From Pyrinomonadaceae bacterium (GTDB taxonomy: Bacteria > Acidobacteriota > Blastocatellia > Pyrinomonadales > Pyrinomonadaceae), in contig JBARIW010000075.1 of assembly GCA_049799955.1 (NCBI GenBank), forward strand, positions 1-63,827: DNA of 63,827 nt, given 5' to 3'. The notes below the pieces were generated by a model. It saw only the letters and a program-made list of their open reading frames with translations, searched no databases and was not told the origin of the DNA. The first letter of the stretch is position 1; each line of letters opens with the position of its first letter. The translations under genes and the position numbers were made by a program. Below, in pieces: positions 18,183 to 42,271 of the stretch.

Positions 18183-18413
18183 TCAAGCCGCAATTCTAAA
18201 ACTTTCCTGAACCGCCTGCGGCAATTCGACCGGATAAAAATAGATTGCGGGATAAAGATAATCTTCGCCCGATTCGTCAATCACGCGGATATAATCGTCT
18301 TCGGCGGCTTTTTCGTCGGGCAGGACTTCGTAGATTTTACGAAGCTGCAAATCTTCGCAGTCATCATTTTTAATACAAACTACAAAGTAAATTTTCGAAT
18401 CTTCGTTTTTCAT
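18183..18413 (-). CDS. small acidic hypothetical protein (antitoxin-like)
   Basis: 76 aa, pI clearly acidic; lies inside the short insertion between the duplicated clpA ends. Confidence 0.4.
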   Translation of the reverse strand: MKNEDSKIYFVVCIKNDDCEDLQLRKIYEVLPDEKAAEDDYIRVIDESGEDYLYPAIYFYPVELPQAVQESFRIAA

Positions 18414-18419
18414 AGTTTT

Positions 18420-18608
18420 AATCCAGATAACTCTTGATTTTCATTTTTCTTTTGCCGATGCCGTGCGCTTCATACCAATGAACTTCGACGCGACGAATTC
18501 TGCCATTTATGAGACGAACGCTTGTTTCGCCTTTCAATTTCCGCCAACGTCCTTGTCCAAACTCCCCGCGCAAACGAGCGATTTCCCTGATTTTATTCCA
18601 ATGGCAAT
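18420..18608 (-). pseudogene. basic toxin-like ORF fragment without ATG start (…RRVEVHWYEAHGIGKRKMKIKSYLD*)
   Basis: 63-codon open frame directly upstream of 18183..18413 on the same strand, with no in-frame ATG/GTG/TTG start; looks like the remnant of a toxin-antitoxin pair. Confidence 0.3.
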
Positions 18609-18652: not shown

Positions 18653-20908
18653 TCAAAAATTCAAAACTAATTCGCCGTCTTTCTCTTCGACCGAAACGCT
18701 TCCGCCATCGGTTAGTTTGCCGAAAAGAATTTCCTGCGCGAGCGGCTGTTTGATTTTTTCGTGAATCAGACGCGCCATCGGACGCGCGCCGTATTTGCCG
18801 TCGAAACCGTGTTCGGCGAGCCAGACTTTCGCGCTTTCGGTGAGTTGTACGAGAACGCGTTTTTCGGCAAGCTGACCGTTTAGCTCGTTGATAAATTTAT
18901 CGACGATGAGCGTGATATGTTCGAGTTCGAGCGCTTTGAACGGCACCCACGCGTCGAGACGATTACGGAATTCGGGCGTGAATGTGCGTTCTATCGCTCC
19001 TTTTGCCTGACCTTTCGAGCTTGCCTGATTGCGAAAACCGACGCCGCCCGAAGATAATTCTCTCGCGCCCGCGTTGGTCGTCATAATCAAAATCACGTTG
19101 CGGAAATCGGCTTTTTTGCCGTTGTTGTCGGTCAGAGTCGCCGAATCCATCACCTGCAAGAGCAAATTAAAAAGGTTCGGATGCGCTTTTTCGATTTCGT
19201 CAAGAACGAGAACGGCGTGCGGCGTGCGCATAATCGCTTCGGTAAGAAGCCCGCCCTGGTCGTAGCCGACGTATCCCGGCGGCGCGCCGATGAGCCGCGA
19301 AACGGTGTGCGGCTCGGCATATTCGCTCATGTCGTAGCGCATAAATTCGATGCCGAGCTGTTCCGCTAATTGCTTTGAAAGCTCGGTTTTGCCAACGCCG
19401 GTCGGACCGCTGAAAAGAAACGAGCCGACGGGTTTTGTTTCGTGTCCGAGACCGGCGCGTGAAATCTGAATCGCGTTGACAATCTGGTCAATCGCTTCGT
19501 CCTGACCGAAAATTACGCCTTTCAAATCCGGCTTGAGCGTCTTCAAACGGTCTTTTTCGTCGGCGACAACCGTTTTCGGCGGAATTTTCGCCATCCGCGC
19601 AATCGCGTTTTCGACCATCTGAACGGAAATAAATTTCGGGCGCGTTTCGACGGGCAAAAGCTTCGTCGCCGCGCCGACCTCATCGATTACGTCAATCGCC
19701 TTGTCGGGCAAATGACGGTCGTTGATGTATTTTCCGGCGAGTTCGGCGGCGACTTTTAAAGCTTCGTCCGAATATTTTACGCCGTGATGTTCTTCGTAAA
19801 ATTTCTTTAAGCCTTTTAAGATTTCGTAAGTTTCGTCAATCGTCGGCTCGCCGATTTCGATTTTCTGAAAGCGTCTCGCAAGTGCGCGGTCGCGTTCAAA
19901 AGCGGCTTTGTATTCGCTGTATGTGGTCGAGCCGATACAGCGCAGAGCGCCGTCGGCAAGCGCGGGTTTTAAGATATTCGAAGCGTCCATCGCGCCGCCC
20001 GAAACCGCGCCCGCGCCGACGATTGTATGAATTTCGTCGATAAAAAGAATCGAATTTTCGTGTTTTTGCAGCTCGCTGATAATCGCTTTGAAACGCTGTT
20101 CGAAATCGCCGCGATAACGCGTTCCGGCAAGAACCGCGCCCATATCGAGCGCGAAAACTTTCGCGTCTTTTAAGACTTCCGGCACATTTCCCTCGCTGAT
20201 TTTCAGCGCCAAACCTTCCGCCAGCGCGGTTTTGCCGACGCCCGGCTCGCCGACGTAAAGCGGATTGTTTTTCTTTCGGCGGCAGAGAACCTGAATAGTT
20301 CTTTCGATTTCCTCCATCCGCCCGATTATCGGGTCAATTTCGCCTTTCGCCGCTTTTGCGACCAATTCGACGGTGAAAGATTCGAGCGGTTTTCTCTTTT
20401 TCGGTCGCGCGCGTTCTTCGGCAAATTCCTCGTCTTCCATCCCTTCGCCAATCGGGTCGAAATCCAGACCGTTATCGATTTTCGAGATGCCGTGCGCGAT
20501 ATAATTCATAATATCGAGCCGTGTTATGCTCTGCTGTTTGAGCAGATAAACAGCATAGCTTTGCTCTGCCTGATAAATTGCGGCGAGAATATTTCCGCCG
20601 TCAACGGCTCGCTGACCGCTGCCTTCCGCCTGCAAAACCGCGTATTGAATCGTCGCCTGAAACGTCGAAGTAAGCTCCGGCATCATCTTTGAGCCGTCGG
20701 GCATTTTCTCCAGAACGTCGGTGAAGTATTCCTCTAAAGATTTGGCTATTTCCTCAATTTTCGCGCCGCAGTTAAACAAAATATCGCGCGCGGCGGTGTC
20801 TTCGAGCAAAGCGAAAAGCAGATGCTCAAGCGTTACATATTCGTGTTTGTGCTTGACGGCTTCATCGACCGCAAAGCTTAACGTTTCTTCTAATTCTCTT
20901 GTCAACAT
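18653..20908 (-). CDS. clpA: ATP-dependent Clp protease ATP-binding subunit ClpA
   Basis: 751 aa, N-domain 'MLTRELEETLSFAVDEAVKHKHEYVTLEHLLFALLED', two AAA+ modules. Confidence 0.95.
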   Translation of the reverse strand: MLTRELEETLSFAVDEAVKHKHEYVTLEHLLFALLEDTAARDILFNCGAKIEEIAKSLEEYFTDVLEKMPDGSKMMPELTSTFQATIQYAVLQAEGSGQRAVDGGNILAAIYQAEQSYAVYLLKQQSITRLDIMNYIAHGISKIDNGLDFDPIGEGMEDEEFAEERARPKKRKPLESFTVELVAKAAKGEIDPIIGRMEEIERTIQVLCRRKKNNPLYVGEPGVGKTALAEGLALKISEGNVPEVLKDAKVFALDMGAVLAGTRYRGDFEQRFKAIISELQKHENSILFIDEIHTIVGAGAVSGGAMDASNILKPALADGALRCIGSTTYSEYKAAFERDRALARRFQKIEIGEPTIDETYEILKGLKKFYEEHHGVKYSDEALKVAAELAGKYINDRHLPDKAIDVIDEVGAATKLLPVETRPKFISVQMVENAIARMAKIPPKTVVADEKDRLKTLKPDLKGVIFGQDEAIDQIVNAIQISRAGLGHETKPVGSFLFSGPTGVGKTELSKQLAEQLGIEFMRYDMSEYAEPHTVSRLIGAPPGYVGYDQGGLLTEAIMRTPHAVLVLDEIEKAHPNLFNLLLQVMDSATLTDNNGKKADFRNVILIMTTNAGARELSSGGVGFRNQASSKGQAKGAIERTFTPEFRNRLDAWVPFKALELEHITLIVDKFINELNGQLAEKRVLVQLTESAKVWLAEHGFDGKYGARPMARLIHEKIKQPLAQEILFGKLTDGGSVSVEEKDGELVLNF

Positions 20909-20914
20909 ATGCTA

Positions 20915-21184
20915 CTAATTTTTTGCTGCTTCTTGATTAGCTCTTTCCTCTAACCATAAATTAACTAAAGTTTCCGTTGATACGCCTTTCTTTTCGGCAA
21001 TCGTGTGAAGCTTAGATGAAAGCGAAGTCTCAACCGCGTAATAAAAAACGTCGGATTCTAAATCAATTTCAAATTTCGCTTCCTCGGTTTTATCCCAAAC
21101 TTCGCCCAAATCGTGCGAATCCCAATACTCGCCAATTTCCTGATAAGATTTCGCTTCTGAAATTGAACTTTTATTTTCTGCCAT
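20915..21184 (-). CDS. brnA: BrnA-like antitoxin (RHH C-terminus)
   Basis: 89 aa; '…YQEIGEYWDSHDLGEVWDKTEEAKFEIDL…TLVNLWLEE' is the typical partner of BrnT. Overlaps brnT by 14 bp. Confidence 0.7.
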   Translation of the reverse strand: MAENKSSISEAKSYQEIGEYWDSHDLGEVWDKTEEAKFEIDLESDVFYYAVETSLSSKLHTIAEKKGVSTETLVNLWLEERANQEAAKN

Positions 21185-21455
21185 ACTGTTTTCTTTCCCT
21201 TTCGGTCATATCTCTTGCCGATAAAATCAAAGCGCGTCTGTCATTTTTATAGACGAAAAAACAAATCAAATAACGTCCCGAATCGGTTTGACCAAATGCC
21301 GCATATACATTTTCACCTTTTCGATGCCCTTTTTCAACAAAACGAATACGTGGATTATTGAGAAAAAGCTCGCGCACTTCTTCCGTTTCAACGGAATGTT
21401 TCCAAATCAATTTCTGAACGATTTCTTCGAGCCAAACGAATCCGGTAATTTTCAT
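21171..21455 (-). CDS. brnT: BrnT (DUF497) ribonuclease toxin
   Basis: 94 aa; MKITGFVWLEEIVQKLIWKHSVETEEVRELF … LILSARDMTERERKQY matches the BrnT pattern (W…KHG..F.E…F … IISARKAT..ER..Y). Confidence 0.8.
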   Translation of the reverse strand: MKITGFVWLEEIVQKLIWKHSVETEEVRELFLNNPRIRFVEKGHRKGENVYAAFGQTDSGRYLICFFVYKNDRRALILSARDMTERERKQYGRK

Positions 21456-21456
21456 T

Positions 21457-21789
21457 TTACTCTTCCTCGACCGTGCAGAGAAGCGGGTATTCGTGCGCCT
21501 TTGATAAATTCATCGCTTTTTCGGCTTTCATCGTGGCGACTTCGAACGAATAAACGCCCGCGACGCCAATGCCTTCGTTATGAACCTGGAACATAATCGT
21601 AAAAGCTTCGATGTCGGAGCGCATAAAGACGGTTTTGAGTATAAAAACGACAAAATCCATCGTCGTAAAATCATCGTTGTGAAGGATGACTTTATACATT
21701 TTCGGCTTTTCGAGCTTTGTCTCGCTCTCGGTCAGAACGTCGCTGTCTTGTTCAATATCGGGAAAATCCGGCATATTATCATTTATCAT
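21457..21789 (-). CDS. clpS: ATP-dependent Clp protease adaptor ClpS
   Basis: MYKVILHNDDFTTMDFVVFIL…HEYPLLCTVEEE is canonical ClpS. Confidence 0.9.
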   Translation of the reverse strand: MINDNMPDFPDIEQDSDVLTESETKLEKPKMYKVILHNDDFTTMDFVVFILKTVFMRSDIEAFTIMFQVHNEGIGVAGVYSFEVATMKAEKAMNLSKAHEYPLLCTVEEE

Positions 21790-21850
21790 TTATCATTGAA
21801 CATCTACCAAATGATTTAATAATAAATGATAAATGTTCAATGATAAATGT
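21777..21850. repeat. palindromic heptamer-repeat hairpin (ATCATTT x3 … AAATGAT) overlapping the clpS start codon
   Basis: tcatttatcattgaacat … atgttcaatgataaatg is a 17-bp perfect inverted repeat. The 5' arm encodes the clpS N-terminus MINDN. Confidence 0.85.
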
Positions 21851-22969
21851 TTAGATTTTATTAACTTCAAAATACGCTTTAATGGCGTTGTATTTGCTCG
21901 AATTGTCTAAGATGTCAAAAATCTTTTCATAGTTTTCCAAGCCTTCGACCTTGTGCGTCAGCATACGGGAAAGCCAGCCCGCGTACATCGCTTCGCAGAG
22001 CGCCAAATCTTTTACGCCAAGCTCGAAATGCTCGCGGTTGGCGTTGACCGTTCCGACCATTGCGCGATTTCCCAGAACGAACATCTGATTGATTTTGTCC
22101 GAAGGAACGGCGTCGGTTTTGCGCTCGCCGCCGGTTACGGAAGCGAGAATCAAAATGCCGTTTTCGTTCAAACTCTGCATCGCGTCGAAGATAATCGGCG
22201 AATAGCCCGTGCATTCAAAAACGAGGTCGTATTCGCCGTATTTTTTCGTACTTTCGGCAATCGATACATCGTCGGTCGAATCGTAAGTCGCGCCGATTGC
22301 TTCGATTAAATCCGCGTTCAGATAGCCTTCGCGCTTTTGCTTGCCGAAGCCGTGAACTTCGTAGCCGCGCAGGCGCAAAGCCATTATGGTCAGCAGCCCG
22401 ACGTTTCCCGTTCCGAGAACGGCGGCGGTTTTCGGATGCCAGATTTTCAAGCGTTCCTGGATGTCGCTCGCCTGTTTCAAGCCTTTTTCGATAATCGAAA
22501 GCGGTTCGAGAAGAACGGCGATTTCTTTAATCGCGGGCGGAATTTTTATTAAAAAATCTGCGCTTTCAGCGTAAAATTCCGACATATAGCCGTGCAGACG
22601 CGAGATTCCGCGCTCGTAATATTTGTCGTCGGTCGTAAAATCCTGCTCGCCGATTTTATCGTAAATGCTCGAACCGCGCGGACGCCTGACGGTGGCGACG
22701 ACGAAATCGCCTTTTTGTAATTCCTTTACATTTTCGCCCGTTTCGACGACGCGCCCGAAGTTTTCGTGTCCGAGAACGAGAAAATCGAAGCCTTTCGGCG
22801 CGACGCCGTATTCGCCGTTGTTTATTTCTCTGTCCGTTCCGCACGCTCCGACGCGCAAAACTTCGACCAGAACGCCGCGCCCGTCTTTAATTTCATCAAT
22901 TTCCGGTTTCTTCATTTGAACCAGCTTCACTGATTTCGCCTGTTTCGGCGTAACTGCTACTGCTTTCAT
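21851..22969 (-). CDS. zinc-dependent alcohol dehydrogenase family (glucose 1-dehydrogenase / threonine-DH-like)
   Basis: 372 aa; 'VGACGTDREI' catalytic-zinc motif, Rossmann fold. Confidence 0.8.
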   Translation of the reverse strand: MKAVAVTPKQAKSVKLVQMKKPEIDEIKDGRGVLVEVLRVGACGTDREINNGEYGVAPKGFDFLVLGHENFGRVVETGENVKELQKGDFVVATVRRPRGSSIYDKIGEQDFTTDDKYYERGISRLHGYMSEFYAESADFLIKIPPAIKEIAVLLEPLSIIEKGLKQASDIQERLKIWHPKTAAVLGTGNVGLLTIMALRLRGYEVHGFGKQKREGYLNADLIEAIGATYDSTDDVSIAESTKKYGEYDLVFECTGYSPIIFDAMQSLNENGILILASVTGGERKTDAVPSDKINQMFVLGNRAMVGTVNANREHFELGVKDLALCEAMYAGWLSRMLTHKVEGLENYEKIFDILDNSSKYNAIKAYFEVNKI

Positions 22970-41477: not shown

Positions 41478-41876
41478 CTATAAAAACACTCTGTAAGATA
41501 TACTGAAAAATTCGCCGAGTTCTTCTGCTTTATTTTTGCTGATTCGACGCTTGCCTGAACAAATATCGGAAATAATTCCTTCCGATTTGAAAATCGGTAA
41601 AAGCTCTTTCTGCTTCATTCCGCGTTCTTCCAAAAGCGTTTCGAGCAGTTTGTGCGGTTCAGTGTTAATTGCCGGAAAAATTTTCGCCTCATAATTAGAC
41701 ATCAGCGCTGTGATTAAACGATGAAGTTTTATTTGTTCAGGGGACGGCTCGGCAGTGCGAATCAGCCGCGAGCGAATTTCCTGAGCGCGATTGTATTCGG
41801 CTTTTGTTTCAATTGCCACCGGAATAATTTCCGTCAAAAGCTCGGCATATTTCACTTTGTTAAAATTACTTGTCAT
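41478..41876 (-). CDS. higA: HigA-family antitoxin (XRE HTH at C-terminus)
   Basis: 132 aa; C-terminal HTH '…MKQKELLPIFKSEGIISDICSGKRRISKNKAEELGEFF'. Located downstream of the HigB-like toxin. Confidence 0.65.
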   Translation of the reverse strand: MTSNFNKVKYAELLTEIIPVAIETKAEYNRAQEIRSRLIRTAEPSPEQIKLHRLITALMSNYEAKIFPAINTEPHKLLETLLEERGMKQKELLPIFKSEGIISDICSGKRRISKNKAEELGEFFSISYRVFL

Positions 41877-41971
41877 TTTCTTAGCTCCTTAGTTTTTACT
41901 TTTTATCTTAAACAATTAACAATTAATAATTTATCCCTCTGACGGGAGAGATAGGGTAGTTACCCTACTGG

Positions 41972-42271
41972 CTAACAGTCGCAATCTTTTTTCCATTTGT
42001 CTTTGCTATACTGCGCGTGAGTTAAAACAGTGACAACATCGATAGCCTGAAAAACATAATTGATAACGACTATCAATCTGTAATTATTCCCCCTGATATT
42101 AAAGACCGTACAATCTCCGGCGGCATCTGCCGAAGGGTAAGATTTTTTTACATCCACAATATTATTCCATTCAGTTTCCTGCACAATTTTTACCCAAAGC
42201 TCAAGAACTCTTTTTGAATCTGTATATTTGCTCCAAAACTTTATCAACTTACCATAATTATTAATTGTCAT
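41972..42271 (-). CDS. higB: HigB-family (RelE-fold) mRNA-interferase toxin
   Basis: 99 aa; '…YPSADAAGDCTVFNIRGNNYRLIVVINYV…VVTVLTHAQYSK' matches the HigB_toxin family pattern (…FNI.GN.YRLI..I.Y……HAEYDK). Confidence 0.7.
   Translation of the reverse strand: MTINNYGKLIKFWSKYTDSKRVLELWVKIVQETEWNNIVDVKKSYPSADAAGDCTVFNIRGNNYRLIVVINYVFQAIDVVTVLTHAQYSKDKWKKDCDC

What the first reader, a model, noticed from the sequence alone, without database searches (positions are those of the whole stretch)
20915..21455. brnT/brnA toxin-antitoxin pair inserted inside the clpS-clpA operon
clpS (21457-21789) and clpA (18653-20908) are normally adjacent and co-transcribed. Here a BrnT (DUF497) toxin and its BrnA RHH antitoxin sit exactly between them on the same strand, with gaps of 1 and 6 bp, so clpA transcription must pass through the toxin-antitoxin pair. 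ClpAP is a typical protease that degrades labile antitoxins. Embedding the toxin-antitoxin pair in the operon of its potential degrader is a striking regulatory coupling, or else an addiction strategy that makes clpSA non-deletable.
Basis: partly seen in the sequence, partly recalled or inferred. Interest (0 to 1): 0.6.

Follow-up and report, generated by a model that had tools for sequence, protein, structure and literature searches.

The report
Toxin-antitoxin pair inside clpS-clpA operon
A real BrnT-type toxin-antitoxin gene pair sits between the protease genes clpS and clpA in this soil acidobacterium, but comparison with relatives shows an old, often-lost passenger in a changeable spot next to clpA rather than a purpose-built link to the protease.

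Summary
On the minus strand the order is clpS, brnT (PF04365), a CopG-type antitoxin (PF12441, not the BrnA family PF14384) and clpA, with a 1-nt gap, a 14-nt overlap and a 6-nt gap.

The organism is a Pyrinomonadaceae bacterium (Acidobacteriota). All clpS/clpA-linked brnTA pairs form one clade, so the pair was acquired once. It shows dN/dS of 0.10-0.16 and synonymous divergence like that of clpA. The junction to clpS is 0-4 nt everywhere, and the last clpS codons supply an SD-like GAGGAA for brnT.

The pair is not fixed. Only 6 of 41 ClpA-ascertained relatives keep it. Sister lineages lack it, have brnT cleanly deleted (L162-164), or have brnA truncated (L167). In the other intact brnTA loci, 62-1,130 bp, often holding unrelated genes, separate brnA from clpA.

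Both flanks of clpA also collect other small cassettes: DUF5678/aspartyl protease, a second BrnT pair, UPF0175/PIN and defence candidate PDC-S11. The window's 6-bp brnA-clpA junction is a derived deletion that removed a conserved clpA leader.

Verdict: an ordinary type II module in an unusual, locally variable position. A functional tie to ClpAP is untested and not favoured.

The parts
21457..21774 (-). clpS, the ClpAP N-degron adaptor. The ORF is open from 21789, but orthologues start at the ATG at 21774 (105 aa).
   Evidence: PF02617 at 101 bits. The gene call on the public contig is 105 aa. Orthologue starts are shown.
21457..21471 (-). Last 15 nt of clpS (GTC GAG GAA GAG TAA). They place an SD-like GAGGAA (21463-21468) 8-12 nt upstream of the brnT ATG.
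   Evidence: The junction is 0-4 nt in all loci that have both genes. Exactly these 15 nt persist in front of brnT in L082, where clpS itself is gone. Their role as a ribosome-binding site is inferred.
21171..21455 (-). brnT, a DUF497/BrnT-family ribonuclease toxin of 94 aa.
   Evidence: PF04365 at 45.1 bits against a 34.5 cut-off. The AF2 model has pLDDT 92.4. Foldseek hits are 7vd7_A at TM 0.78 and 3u97 (Brucella BrnT) at TM 0.65/0.78. K19, H20 and E87 are invariant in 45 homologues and correspond to residues required for RNase activity in BrnT-type toxins (PMC10714953; alignment). dN/dS is 0.10.
20915..21184 (-). Antitoxin of 89 aa, a CopG_antitoxin-family protein with a presumed RHH C-terminal half. 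It overlaps brnT by 14 nt (21171-21184).
   Evidence: PF12441 at 29.1 bits against a 28 cut-off, and the same family is precomputed for most homologues. NCBI names it 'CopG family antitoxin'. The 14-nt overlap is conserved in 7 of 7 orthologous loci. dN/dS is 0.16. The monomer model was unusable at pLDDT 51.
20909..20914 (-). Six-nucleotide junction (TAGCAT) between the brnA stop and the clpA ATG. It is a derived deletion that removed the conserved clpA leader.
   Evidence: The leader core (G/T)CATCAAARnnnTTTTnAAAnnATG is present upstream of clpA in 22 aligned loci whatever the upstream gene, and absent in the window and L162. There is no copy anywhere in the window. In the loci it occurs only upstream of clpA.
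18653..20908 (-). clpA, the AAA+ unfoldase of the ClpAP protease (751 aa).
   Evidence: TIGR02639 at 1075.8 bits against a 993 cut-off. It is 82-90% identical to Pyrinomonadaceae orthologues.
21773..21856 (-). GDH-clpS spacer. It holds an AT-rich inverted repeat built of short tandem units and the only promoter-like hexamers upstream of the four genes (21853-21819).
   Evidence: Equivalent hairpins of different sequence occur in relatives with and without brnTA, so this is not a TA operator. Promoter function is inferred only.
18183..18573 (-). Variable slot just downstream of clpA. In the window it holds ORFs of 51 aa (18418-18573) and 76 aa (18183-18413). Relatives carry TA pairs in the same place.
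   Evidence: L162 is collinear with the window except here, where it carries a second BrnT-family pair. L028 and L167 carry UPF0175 plus DUF3368/PIN here. The orf76 family has 3857 homologues and no Pfam domain.

Best explanation
This is a genuine and probably active type II toxin-antitoxin module: a BrnT/DUF497 RNase toxin followed by a CopG-type antitoxin. An ancestor of the Pyrinomonadaceae acquired it once, directly behind the clpS stop codon. It has no intergenic promoter region of its own there. It rides on the clpS transcript, and brnT is translated from an SD-like GAGGAA supplied by the last clpS codons. brnA is translationally coupled to brnT through a 14-nt overlap.

The module has been inherited vertically under purifying selection, but it behaves like a typical dispensable or selfish TA. 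It has been lost, toxin-deleted or antitoxin-truncated in many lineages. It lies in a locally hypervariable zone on both sides of clpA that also collects other small cassettes: other TA pairs, a DUF5678/aspartyl-protease pair and defence-candidate genes.

In the window's lineage, which it shares with L162-164, a later deletion removed everything between the brnA stop and the clpA ATG, including the conserved clpA leader. That produced the compact clpS-brnT-brnA-clpA unit. Here clpA is most likely expressed by read-through from upstream and by termination-reinitiation after brnA.

Shown: gene identities, fold, conserved catalytic residues, selection, monophyly, junction conservation, loss and decay states, cassette diversity, and loss of the leader. 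Inferred: co-transcription, use of GAGGAA as the ribosome-binding site, translational coupling to clpA, toxicity, and neutralisation.
For: Identity: plus PMC10714953.

Single acquisition: all 14 clpS/clpA-linked BrnT+BrnA pairs form one clade among 74 pairs. The other 60, which are at most 74% identical, have no clpS or clpA nearby.

Long residence under selection: dN/dS is 0.10 for brnT, 0.16 for brnA and 0.115 for clpA. The dS of brnTA is about the same as that of clpA, 0.5-1.2.

Conserved coupling to clpS: the gaps are 0-4 nt, and a 15-nt clpS relic persists in L082.

Variable distance to clpA: 6, 62, 183 and 490-725 nt in the genome loci, and about 0.8-1.1 kb in metagenome contigs. The cargo in between is unrelated: SWIM, pentapeptide, SEC-C, PDC-S11 and unknowns.

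Patchy presence among the nearest relatives on the ClpA tree.

Decay states: brnT precisely deleted in L162-164, an orphan brnA-like N-terminus in L010, and a frameshifted brnT with truncated brnA in L167.

Other cassettes at the same junctions.

Unbiased near/far scan of 41 ClpA-ascertained loci: 14 TA-component Pfam hits in 99 kb within 1.3 kb of clpA, against about 1 in 228 kb further out.

The clpA leader is conserved elsewhere and missing here. No terminator-like site lies between clpS and clpA, and no transposon-type repeats flank the pair.
Against: The clpS-brnT junction has stayed at 0-4 nt over dS of about 1. In every locus with enough flank, the pair remains upstream of clpA even where clpS was replaced (L009, L082). 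That could reflect selection for co-expression with the Clp genes rather than mere inheritance.

The orphan brnA in L162-164 is intact, which hints at a toxin-independent role.

brnTA keeps a foreign composition, with GC3 of 0.30-0.47 against 0.47-0.63 in the flanks, in all lineages. That sits awkwardly with very long residence, unless weak codon selection or exchange by homologous recombination explains it.

The enrichment of TA genes near clpA rests on only about 3-4 independent events against 1 (p about 0.03-0.09).

The trees are neighbour-joining without support values. Most relatives are MAG contigs. No expression or activity data exist.
Confidence: 0.65

Rival explanations
1. Functional coupling to the protease. 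ClpAP, possibly with ClpS, is the protease that degrades this antitoxin. Placing the pair in the clpS-clpA transcription unit ties toxin activation to ClpAP level, or lets the RHH antitoxin regulate the operon.
For: ClpAP does degrade some antitoxins, for example ParD of RK2 (PMC6191456). The pair always lies upstream of clpA in its clade. The coupling to clpS is tight and conserved. Several different TA families lie beside clpA. An intact orphan brnA is retained directly before clpA.
Against: Outside the window's own lineage (the window and L162-164), clpA keeps its own conserved leader in most loci and is separated from brnA by 62-1,130 bp and unrelated genes. The module is lost or degraded repeatedly without visible compensation. 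The inverted repeat at the clpS promoter region does not track brnTA presence. Neither protein has an evident N-degron or ssrA-like tail (sequence inspection). Nothing links this antitoxin family to ClpAP experimentally.
Confidence: 0.15
2. Addiction. The pair stabilises the clpS-clpA region by killing cells that delete it.
For: Type II TA modules can stabilise adjacent DNA (general knowledge). The pair sits between two genes that are usually kept together.
Against: The pair is absent from the closest relatives of brnTA-positive genomes (L015 vs L011, L003 vs L061, L012 vs L009). The toxin alone has been excised. clpS has been separated from clpA or replaced in many lineages, including brnTA-bearing ones such as L009 and L082. 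So neither the module nor the operon is protected from deletion or rearrangement.
Confidence: 0.05
3. Defence islet. The flanks of clpA are a hotspot for anti-phage or abortive-infection genes, and brnTA serves there as a phage-triggered RNase.
For: A PDC-S11 defence-candidate gene (E = 3e-72) occupies the brnA-clpA gap in L088. Several TA-type cassettes stack co-directionally there. Cargo between conserved genes is variable. The composition is foreign.
Against: BrnT and the antitoxin hit no PADLOC model. Most of the cargo has no defence annotation. There is no phage or integrase signature in the slot. No defence role for BrnT-type toxins came up in the papers read here.
Confidence: 0.15
4. 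Recent horizontal insertion, or an assembly artefact, specific to this contig.
For: The GC3 of brnTA is 0.33 against 0.59 for its neighbours. The source is a MAG.
Against: The same arrangement occurs on an independent assembly and in at least 13 other loci from different studies. The dS between orthologues is about the same as that of clpA. The clade is monophyletic. The 6-bp junction is shared with L162-164.
Confidence: 0.02

Closest known systems
BrnT/BrnA of Brucella abortus (PDB 3U97; Heaton et al. 2012, as cited in PMC10714953)
   Same: The toxin belongs to the same Pfam family (PF04365) and has the same fold. It has the same conserved Lys-His...Glu residues. The two genes are small and the toxin gene comes first. 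The antitoxin is presumed to be RHH-type.
   Different: The antitoxin belongs to PF12441 (CopG_antitoxin), not to the BrnA_antitoxin family. The toxin is only about 17% identical to Brucella BrnT. Brucella brnTA has its own autoregulated, stress-induced promoter (PMC10714953). Here no intergenic region precedes brnT, which abuts clpS, and the pair is followed at 6 nt by clpA.
The same BrnT/CopG_antitoxin subfamily in unrelated genomic contexts (metagenome loci L089-L161)
   Same: BrnT is 60-74% identical and the antitoxin 39-57% identical. The toxin comes first in the same way, mostly with short overlaps.
   Different: None has clpS or clpA within the available flanks. The clpS/clpA-linked copies form a separate single clade.
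TA modules co-transcribed with housekeeping genes, for example relA-mazEF in E. coli (from my own knowledge, not checked here)
   Same: A type II module lies directly downstream of a housekeeping gene and shares its transcription.
   Different: Here the module lies inside a two-gene operon, is translationally coupled to the upstream gene, and in this lineage has replaced the downstream gene's leader.
SocAB of Caulobacter, whose toxin SocB is degraded by ClpXP (PMC5422525)
   Same: It is a documented case in which a TA system and a Clp protease depend on each other.
   Different: SocAB is not encoded in the clp operon. The toxin rather than the antitoxin is the substrate. There is no homology to BrnT or BrnA, and no evidence of any such dependence here.
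Accessory-gene or defence hotspots between conserved core genes (general concept, from my own knowledge)
   Same: Gene content is variable between conserved flanks. The slot mixes TA, defence-candidate and unknown small genes. Presence and absence differ among close relatives.
   Different: The slot is very small and sits inside or next to an operon. Cassettes are packed with overlapping stop and start codons. No integrase, attC-like site or terminal repeats were found.

Membership tests
BrnT toxin family (Pfam PF04365 / DUF497) | Profile match above the curated threshold over the whole domain | tested here: met
   45.1 bits against a 34.5 cut-off, profile positions 6-77 of 77.
BrnT toxin family (Pfam PF04365 / DUF497) | BrnT fold (solved structure 3U97) | tested here: met
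   The AF2 model has pLDDT 92.4. The only Foldseek hits with E < 1e-3 are 7vd7_A (TM 0.78) and 3u97 (TM 0.65/0.78). A sequence-only PDB search found nothing.
BrnT toxin family (Pfam PF04365 / DUF497) | Conserved residues needed for RNase activity and toxicity (Lys-His pair and C-terminal Glu; Phe in Aave_1720) | tested here: met
   K19, H20 and E87 are invariant in 45 homologues. F31 is invariant in the 7 orthologues. The residues align with the KHG...ER motif of a canonical BrnT. The residue list is from PMC10714953.
BrnT toxin family (Pfam PF04365 / DUF497) | Ribonuclease activity and growth inhibition | not testable with these tools
   Needs expression and RNase assays.
BrnA antitoxin family (Pfam BrnA_antitoxin, PF14384) | Profile match to the BrnA_antitoxin model | tested here: not met
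   No BrnA_antitoxin hit at E <= 0.01. The only hit is PF12441. Some NCBI records nevertheless label homologues 'BrnA antitoxin family protein'.
CopG_antitoxin family (Pfam PF12441) | Profile match above the curated threshold | tested here: met
   29.1 bits against a 28 cut-off, which is marginal. The same family is precomputed for most of 120 homologues and found in 6 orthologues.
CopG_antitoxin family (Pfam PF12441) | Ribbon-helix-helix DNA-binding fold | tested here: inconclusive
   The monomer AF2 model has pLDDT 51. A strand-helix-helix pattern in residues 47-83 is only read from the sequence.
Type II toxin-antitoxin module | Two small adjacent co-directional genes, coupled, co-inherited and both under purifying selection | tested here: met
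   The 14-nt overlap is present in 7 of 7 loci. dN/dS is 0.10 and 0.16. The two genes are paired in 74 loci.
Type II toxin-antitoxin module | Own promoter or operator autoregulated by the antitoxin or the complex | tested here: inconclusive
   No intergenic space lies upstream of brnT (0-4 nt after clpS). Only weak consensus matches were found. The palindrome upstream of clpS does not track brnTA. An operator inside the clpS coding sequence cannot be excluded.
Type II toxin-antitoxin module | Protein antitoxin neutralises the toxin and is protease-labile | not testable with these tools
   Needs co-expression, pull-down and stability assays.
clpS-clpA operon | ClpS adaptor and ClpA unfoldase, adjacent and co-directional | tested here: met
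   PF02617 and TIGR02639 are above their cut-offs. The genes are adjacent in 15 outgroup genomes and 7 close relatives. In the window they are separated only by brnTA.
clpS-clpA operon | Co-transcription of all four genes | not testable with these tools
   Only indirect evidence exists: the gaps are 1 nt, a 14-nt overlap and 6 nt, and there is no terminator-like site.
Mobile cassette (transposon or integron type) | Terminal inverted repeats, target-site duplication or attC-like sites flanking the pair | tested here: not met
   No flanking repeats beyond chance-level short matches. No integrase or transposase lies in the slot.

The most novel reading that the evidence does not exclude
In the window's lineage the antitoxin ORF may have been co-opted as the translational leader of clpA, and possibly as a trans regulator too. 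After the native clpA leader was deleted, ClpA synthesis would depend on transcription through brnTA and on termination-reinitiation after brnA. If ClpAP also degrades the antitoxin, the cell would have a feedback loop linking ClpAP capacity to toxin release. This would explain why an intact orphan brnA is kept directly in front of clpA in L162-164 after the toxin was deleted. It might also explain why several unrelated TA families gather next to clpA in this family.
Probability: 0.1. Interest if true: 0.6.

Novelty: new member of a known kind. Interest (0 to 1): 0.3.

Why it matters
If the reading is right, the locus is a clear natural series for the life cycle of a chromosomal toxin-antitoxin module. 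It shows one acquisition, long vertical persistence without a promoter region of its own, and then every stage of decay: an intact pair, toxin loss, antitoxin truncation and clean absence. All of this happens at a single nucleotide-defined site between two well-known housekeeping genes.

It also shows how an inserted selfish module can end up carrying the expression signals of an essential-type neighbour, since clpA has lost its leader here. It flags the clpA flanks of Pyrinomonadaceae as a small hotspot for accessory cassettes.

It does not by itself reveal a new mechanism. The appealing idea of a protease-TA circuit remains a hypothesis that simple experiments could test.

Tried and rejected
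1. Operator idea. The AT-rich inverted repeat between GDH and clpS (21773-21856) might have been the antitoxin's operator. I rejected this because equivalent hairpins, with lineage-specific sequences, occur in loci with and without brnTA.

2. Transposon or integron-type insertion. No terminal repeats, target duplications or recombinase genes were found.

3. Independent re-insertion in L030. Its brnTA is far more divergent than its clpA. The BrnT+BrnA tree places it inside the single clpS/clpA-linked clade as a long branch, so fast evolution is more likely than a second acquisition.

4. Sequence-only PDB searches for the toxin and the antitoxin found nothing meaningful. Only the fold search worked for the toxin.

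6. PADLOC gave no hit for BrnT or the antitoxin.

7. Rfam found no RNA element near the locus.

8. The original BrnT/BrnA paper (Heaton 2012) is not held. Its findings are cited second-hand from PMC10714953.

9. Literature searches for a TA pair between clpS and clpA, or for TA hotspots at clpA, found nothing specific. No paper was found for PDB 7VD7.

10. Selection on the orphan brnA. The dN/dS of 0.16 against the window cannot separate time before and after toxin loss, so it is inconclusive.
Full report
**Observation.** On the minus strand the window encodes four genes in a row.
- clpS is 21457-21789. The likely true start is 21774, which gives 105 aa, as in the orthologues and in the public gene call.
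- brnT is 21171-21455 (94 aa).
- The antitoxin is 20915-21184 (89 aa).
- clpA is 18653-20908 (751 aa).

The spacings are 1 nt, a 14-nt overlap and 6 nt. Profile searches identify ClpS (PF02617, 101 bits), ClpA (TIGR02639, 1076 bits against a 993 cut-off) and BrnT_toxin (PF04365, 45.1 against 34.5). The antitoxin hits CopG_antitoxin (PF12441, 29.1 against 28) and not the BrnA_antitoxin family.

**Are the two small genes real?** Yes.
- The toxin has 647 database homologues. The top 120 are at least 68% identical and nearly all are 94 aa. The antitoxin has 206 homologues.
- Among seven orthologous loci, dN/dS is 0.10 for brnT and 0.16 for brnA, comparable with clpA at 0.115.
- An AlphaFold model of the toxin has pLDDT 92.4. 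Its only strong matches among solved structures are the toxin of a Salmonella TA complex (7VD7, TM 0.78) and Brucella BrnT (3U97, TM 0.65/0.78).
[quoted passage not shown] They correspond to K19, H20, E87 and F31 here. K19, H20 and E87 are invariant in 45 homologues, and F31 is invariant in the seven orthologues.
- The antitoxin monomer model was too poor to use (pLDDT 51).

**Source organism and relatives.** The window is an NCBI MAG contig of a Pyrinomonadaceae bacterium (Acidobacteriota, Blastocatellia). The same arrangement is on an independent Logan assembly.

A genome scan with ClpA returned 80 loci. In 15 outgroup genomes, with ClpA 51-65% identical, clpS lies immediately upstream of clpA, so adjacency is the ancestral state.

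Among the 41 close relatives (ClpA at least 77% identical) the picture is very mixed:
- clpS directly abuts clpA (16-68 nt apart) in 7.
- brnTA lies upstream of clpA in 6 (L009, L011, L016, L027, L030, L061).
- clpS is 0.25-3.6 kb away, with other genes or DNA in between, in 5.
- In the rest, clpA is preceded by quite different genes, such as protein-isoaspartate methyltransferase, an OPT transporter or thrB.

**One ancient acquisition.** A metagenome scan with a BrnT alignment gave 80 more loci. Copies at least 81% identical to the window's BrnT (L082-L088) are next to clpS and/or clpA. The 73 copies at 60-74% identity have the same toxin-first pair but no clpS or clpA nearby.

In a BrnT+BrnA tree of 74 pairs, all 14 clpS/clpA-linked pairs form a single clade. 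Synonymous divergence between orthologous brnTA copies (about 0.5-1.2) matches that of the adjacent clpA. The pair therefore entered this site once, in an ancestor of these Pyrinomonadaceae, and has mostly been inherited with its neighbours.

It nevertheless keeps a foreign composition in every lineage, with GC3 of 0.30-0.47 against 0.47-0.63 in the flanks. This may reflect weak codon selection, or exchange of the whole slot by homologous recombination.

**What is conserved is the link to clpS.** The clpS stop and the brnT ATG are 0-4 nt apart in every locus that has both genes. The brnT/brnA overlap is 14 nt in all seven genome loci. The last clpS codons, GTC GAG GAA GAG TAA, put an SD-like GAGGAA 8-12 nt before the brnT start.

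L082 is one of the closest relatives, at 93% nucleotide identity over brnTA. There clpS has been replaced by an unrelated regulator gene, yet exactly these 15 nt remain in front of brnT. I infer that brnT uses them as its ribosome-binding site, and that the pair is normally expressed from the clpS transcript.

**The link to clpA is not conserved.**
- The brnA-clpA distance is 6 nt in the window, 62 nt in L030 and 183 nt in L009. It is 490-725 nt in L011, L016, L027 and L061, and about 0.8-1.1 kb in L082 and L086-L088.
- The longer gaps hold unrelated genes: a SWIM-finger protein, a pentapeptide-repeat protein, SEC-C-motif proteins, a PDC-S11 phage-defence candidate (E = 3e-72) and unknowns.
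- Most relatives, whatever lies upstream, keep a conserved clpA leader, (G/T)CATCAAARnnnTTTTnAAAnnATG. In the fetched loci this motif occurs only in front of clpA.
- The window has no copy of it. Here the brnA stop is fused to within 6 nt of the clpA ATG.
- The same junction is present in L162-164, so it is a real, derived deletion in this lineage.
- The scan finds no terminator-like site between clpS and clpA. The only promoter-like hexamers upstream of the four genes lie in the GDH-clpS spacer, and there is one weak match inside brnT. None of this exceeds chance.

In the window, clpA is therefore probably expressed by read-through and termination-reinitiation after brnA. This is inference.

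**The module is dispensable and decays.**
- On the ClpA tree, brnTA-bearing loci are scattered, and their nearest neighbours lack the pair (L011 vs L015, L061 vs L003, L009 vs L012).
- L162-164 are collinear with the window at 91-94% nucleotide identity, but brnT is cleanly deleted there. An intact orphan antitoxin remains before clpA.
- L010 retains only a brnA-like N-terminus.
- In L167, brnT has lost its stop codon by a frameshift. brnA is cut after residue 42 and replaced by a hairpin-rich element.
- clpS itself has been separated from clpA many times.

These facts argue against the 'non-deletable clpSA' idea, and against the pair being an integral regulator of the operon.

**A small hotspot around clpA.** Other cassettes use the same junctions.
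- A DUF5678 gene plus a retropepsin-like aspartyl-protease gene lies between clpS and brnT or clpA in L005, L008, L010, L019, L028, L086 and L088. In L010 it starts 1 nt after the clpS stop. In L088 its stop codon overlaps the brnT ATG. Relics of it precede brnT in L009 and L086.
- Directly downstream of clpA, L162, L002 and L021 carry a second, different BrnT-family pair (frameshifted in L021). L028 and L167 carry UPF0175 plus DUF3368/PIN, and L005 has UPF0175 at a contig end. The window has two unannotated small ORFs in that place.

I ran an unbiased scan of small ORFs in the 41 ClpA-ascertained loci.
- Within 1.3 kb of clpA (99 kb in total) there were 14 TA-component Pfam hits: BrnT 5, CopG_antitoxin 6, UPF0175 2 and DUF3368 1.
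- In the remaining 228 kb there was about 1, a DUF433.

Counted as loci this is 9 against 1, a nominal p of about 2e-4. Counted as independent evolutionary events it is only about 3-4 against 1, or p about 0.03-0.09. The hotspot is therefore suggestive rather than proven. The window also holds an unrelated HigB toxin at 42 kb, so other TA genes occur away from clpA as well.

**Mechanism.** The best-supported reading is an ordinary type II TA: an RNase toxin neutralised by a CopG-type antitoxin. It was captured once behind clpS, is expressed parasitically from the clpS message, persists by purifying selection and perhaps addiction, and is repeatedly lost.

The window represents a compacted state in which clpA has lost its own leader. 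ClpAP does degrade some antitoxins (PMC6191456), and a Clp-TA dependence is known for SocAB/ClpXP (PMC5422525). But none of the comparative evidence requires it, and several observations weigh against it.

**Novelty.** The genes are already annotated as a BrnT toxin and a CopG antitoxin. I found no paper describing a TA pair between clpS and clpA. I rate it a new member of a known kind in an unusual, well-resolved genomic setting, of modest interest (0.3). The most novel surviving reading is that brnA has become the translational leader or regulator of clpA within a ClpAP feedback loop. I give that about 10% probability.

Noticed in passing
window 18183-18573 (minus strand); L167:4001-4231; L165:4001-4231: Two unannotated small ORFs of 51 aa and 76 aa fill the slot just downstream of clpA. 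The 76-aa protein belongs to a large uncharacterised family (3857 homologues, no Pfam domain). In L167 it directly follows a UPF0175/DUF3368 TA pair downstream of clpA, and in L165 it sits beside IS1 transposase fragments. The 51-aa ORF has no hits.
   Followed up: partly
L162:8542-9061; L002:6218-6689; L021:3180-3766: A second, different BrnT-family pair lies 9-10 nt after the clpA stop in L162 and L002. The toxin is 96 aa (PF04365 at 90 bits) and the antitoxin about 81 aa. L021 has the same pair about 65 nt downstream, with the toxin frameshifted.
   Followed up: partly
L088:177-920; L010:3436-4178; L019:3536-4308; L028:4093-4845; L005:4504-4845; L008:4610-4942: A recurrent two-gene cassette lies between clpS and brnT or clpA. 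It is a DUF5678 protein of about 115 aa followed by a retropepsin-like aspartyl protease of about 130 aa with a DTG motif. Its stop and start codons overlap its neighbours'. It may be an uncharacterised TA-like module.
   Followed up: partly
Upstream of clpA in 22 loci, e.g. L013:4950-5003 and L011:4975-5003; absent from the window: A conserved clpA leader of about 25-45 nt, (G/T)CATCAAARnnnTTTTnAAAnnATG, often preceded by TTTTGTGAGATAAT, is kept whatever gene lies upstream. It is found only in front of clpA. It may be a promoter or 5'-UTR element, but its function is unknown.
   Followed up: partly
window 21773-21856 and the GDH-clpS spacers of L008, L010, L016, L018, L020, L026, L048, L057: The spacer between the glucose-dehydrogenase-like gene and clpS always forms a long hairpin. 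Its arms are tandem repeats of a short unit of about 7 nt, and the unit sequence differs between lineages. The structure is conserved but the sequence is not.
   Followed up: partly
L088:1415-2494; L082:3326-4399; L086:1343-2413: The genes inserted between brnA and clpA include a PADLOC PDC-S11 phage-defence candidate with a NucS-like nuclease domain (E = 3e-72). They also include SEC-C-motif proteins of 356-357 aa whose function is unknown.
   Followed up: partly
L167:640-880: About 200 nt of sequence made of several short perfect hairpins (for example GTCGCTGAAAGCGAC and CGTAGGGTGAAACCCTACG) has replaced the 3' half of brnA. It looks like a MITE or REP-type element.
   Followed up: no
L030:4404-4938: The brnTA copy of L030 is far more divergent than its clpA. 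Against L027, dN is 0.22 for brnT and 0.36 for brnA, but 0.058 for clpA. It still falls inside the linked clade. This is either accelerated evolution or allele replacement.
   Followed up: partly
window 41478-42271 (minus strand): An unrelated TA candidate: a HigB-family toxin (PF09907, 88 bits) at 41972-42271, with a 132-aa putative partner that has no Pfam hit at 41478-41876.
   Followed up: partly
window 20915-21455 and its orthologues: brnTA keeps a GC3 of 0.30-0.47 against 0.47-0.63 for the flanking genes in all seven lineages, despite synonymous divergence of about 1 between them. Composition has not ameliorated over a long residence.
   Followed up: partly
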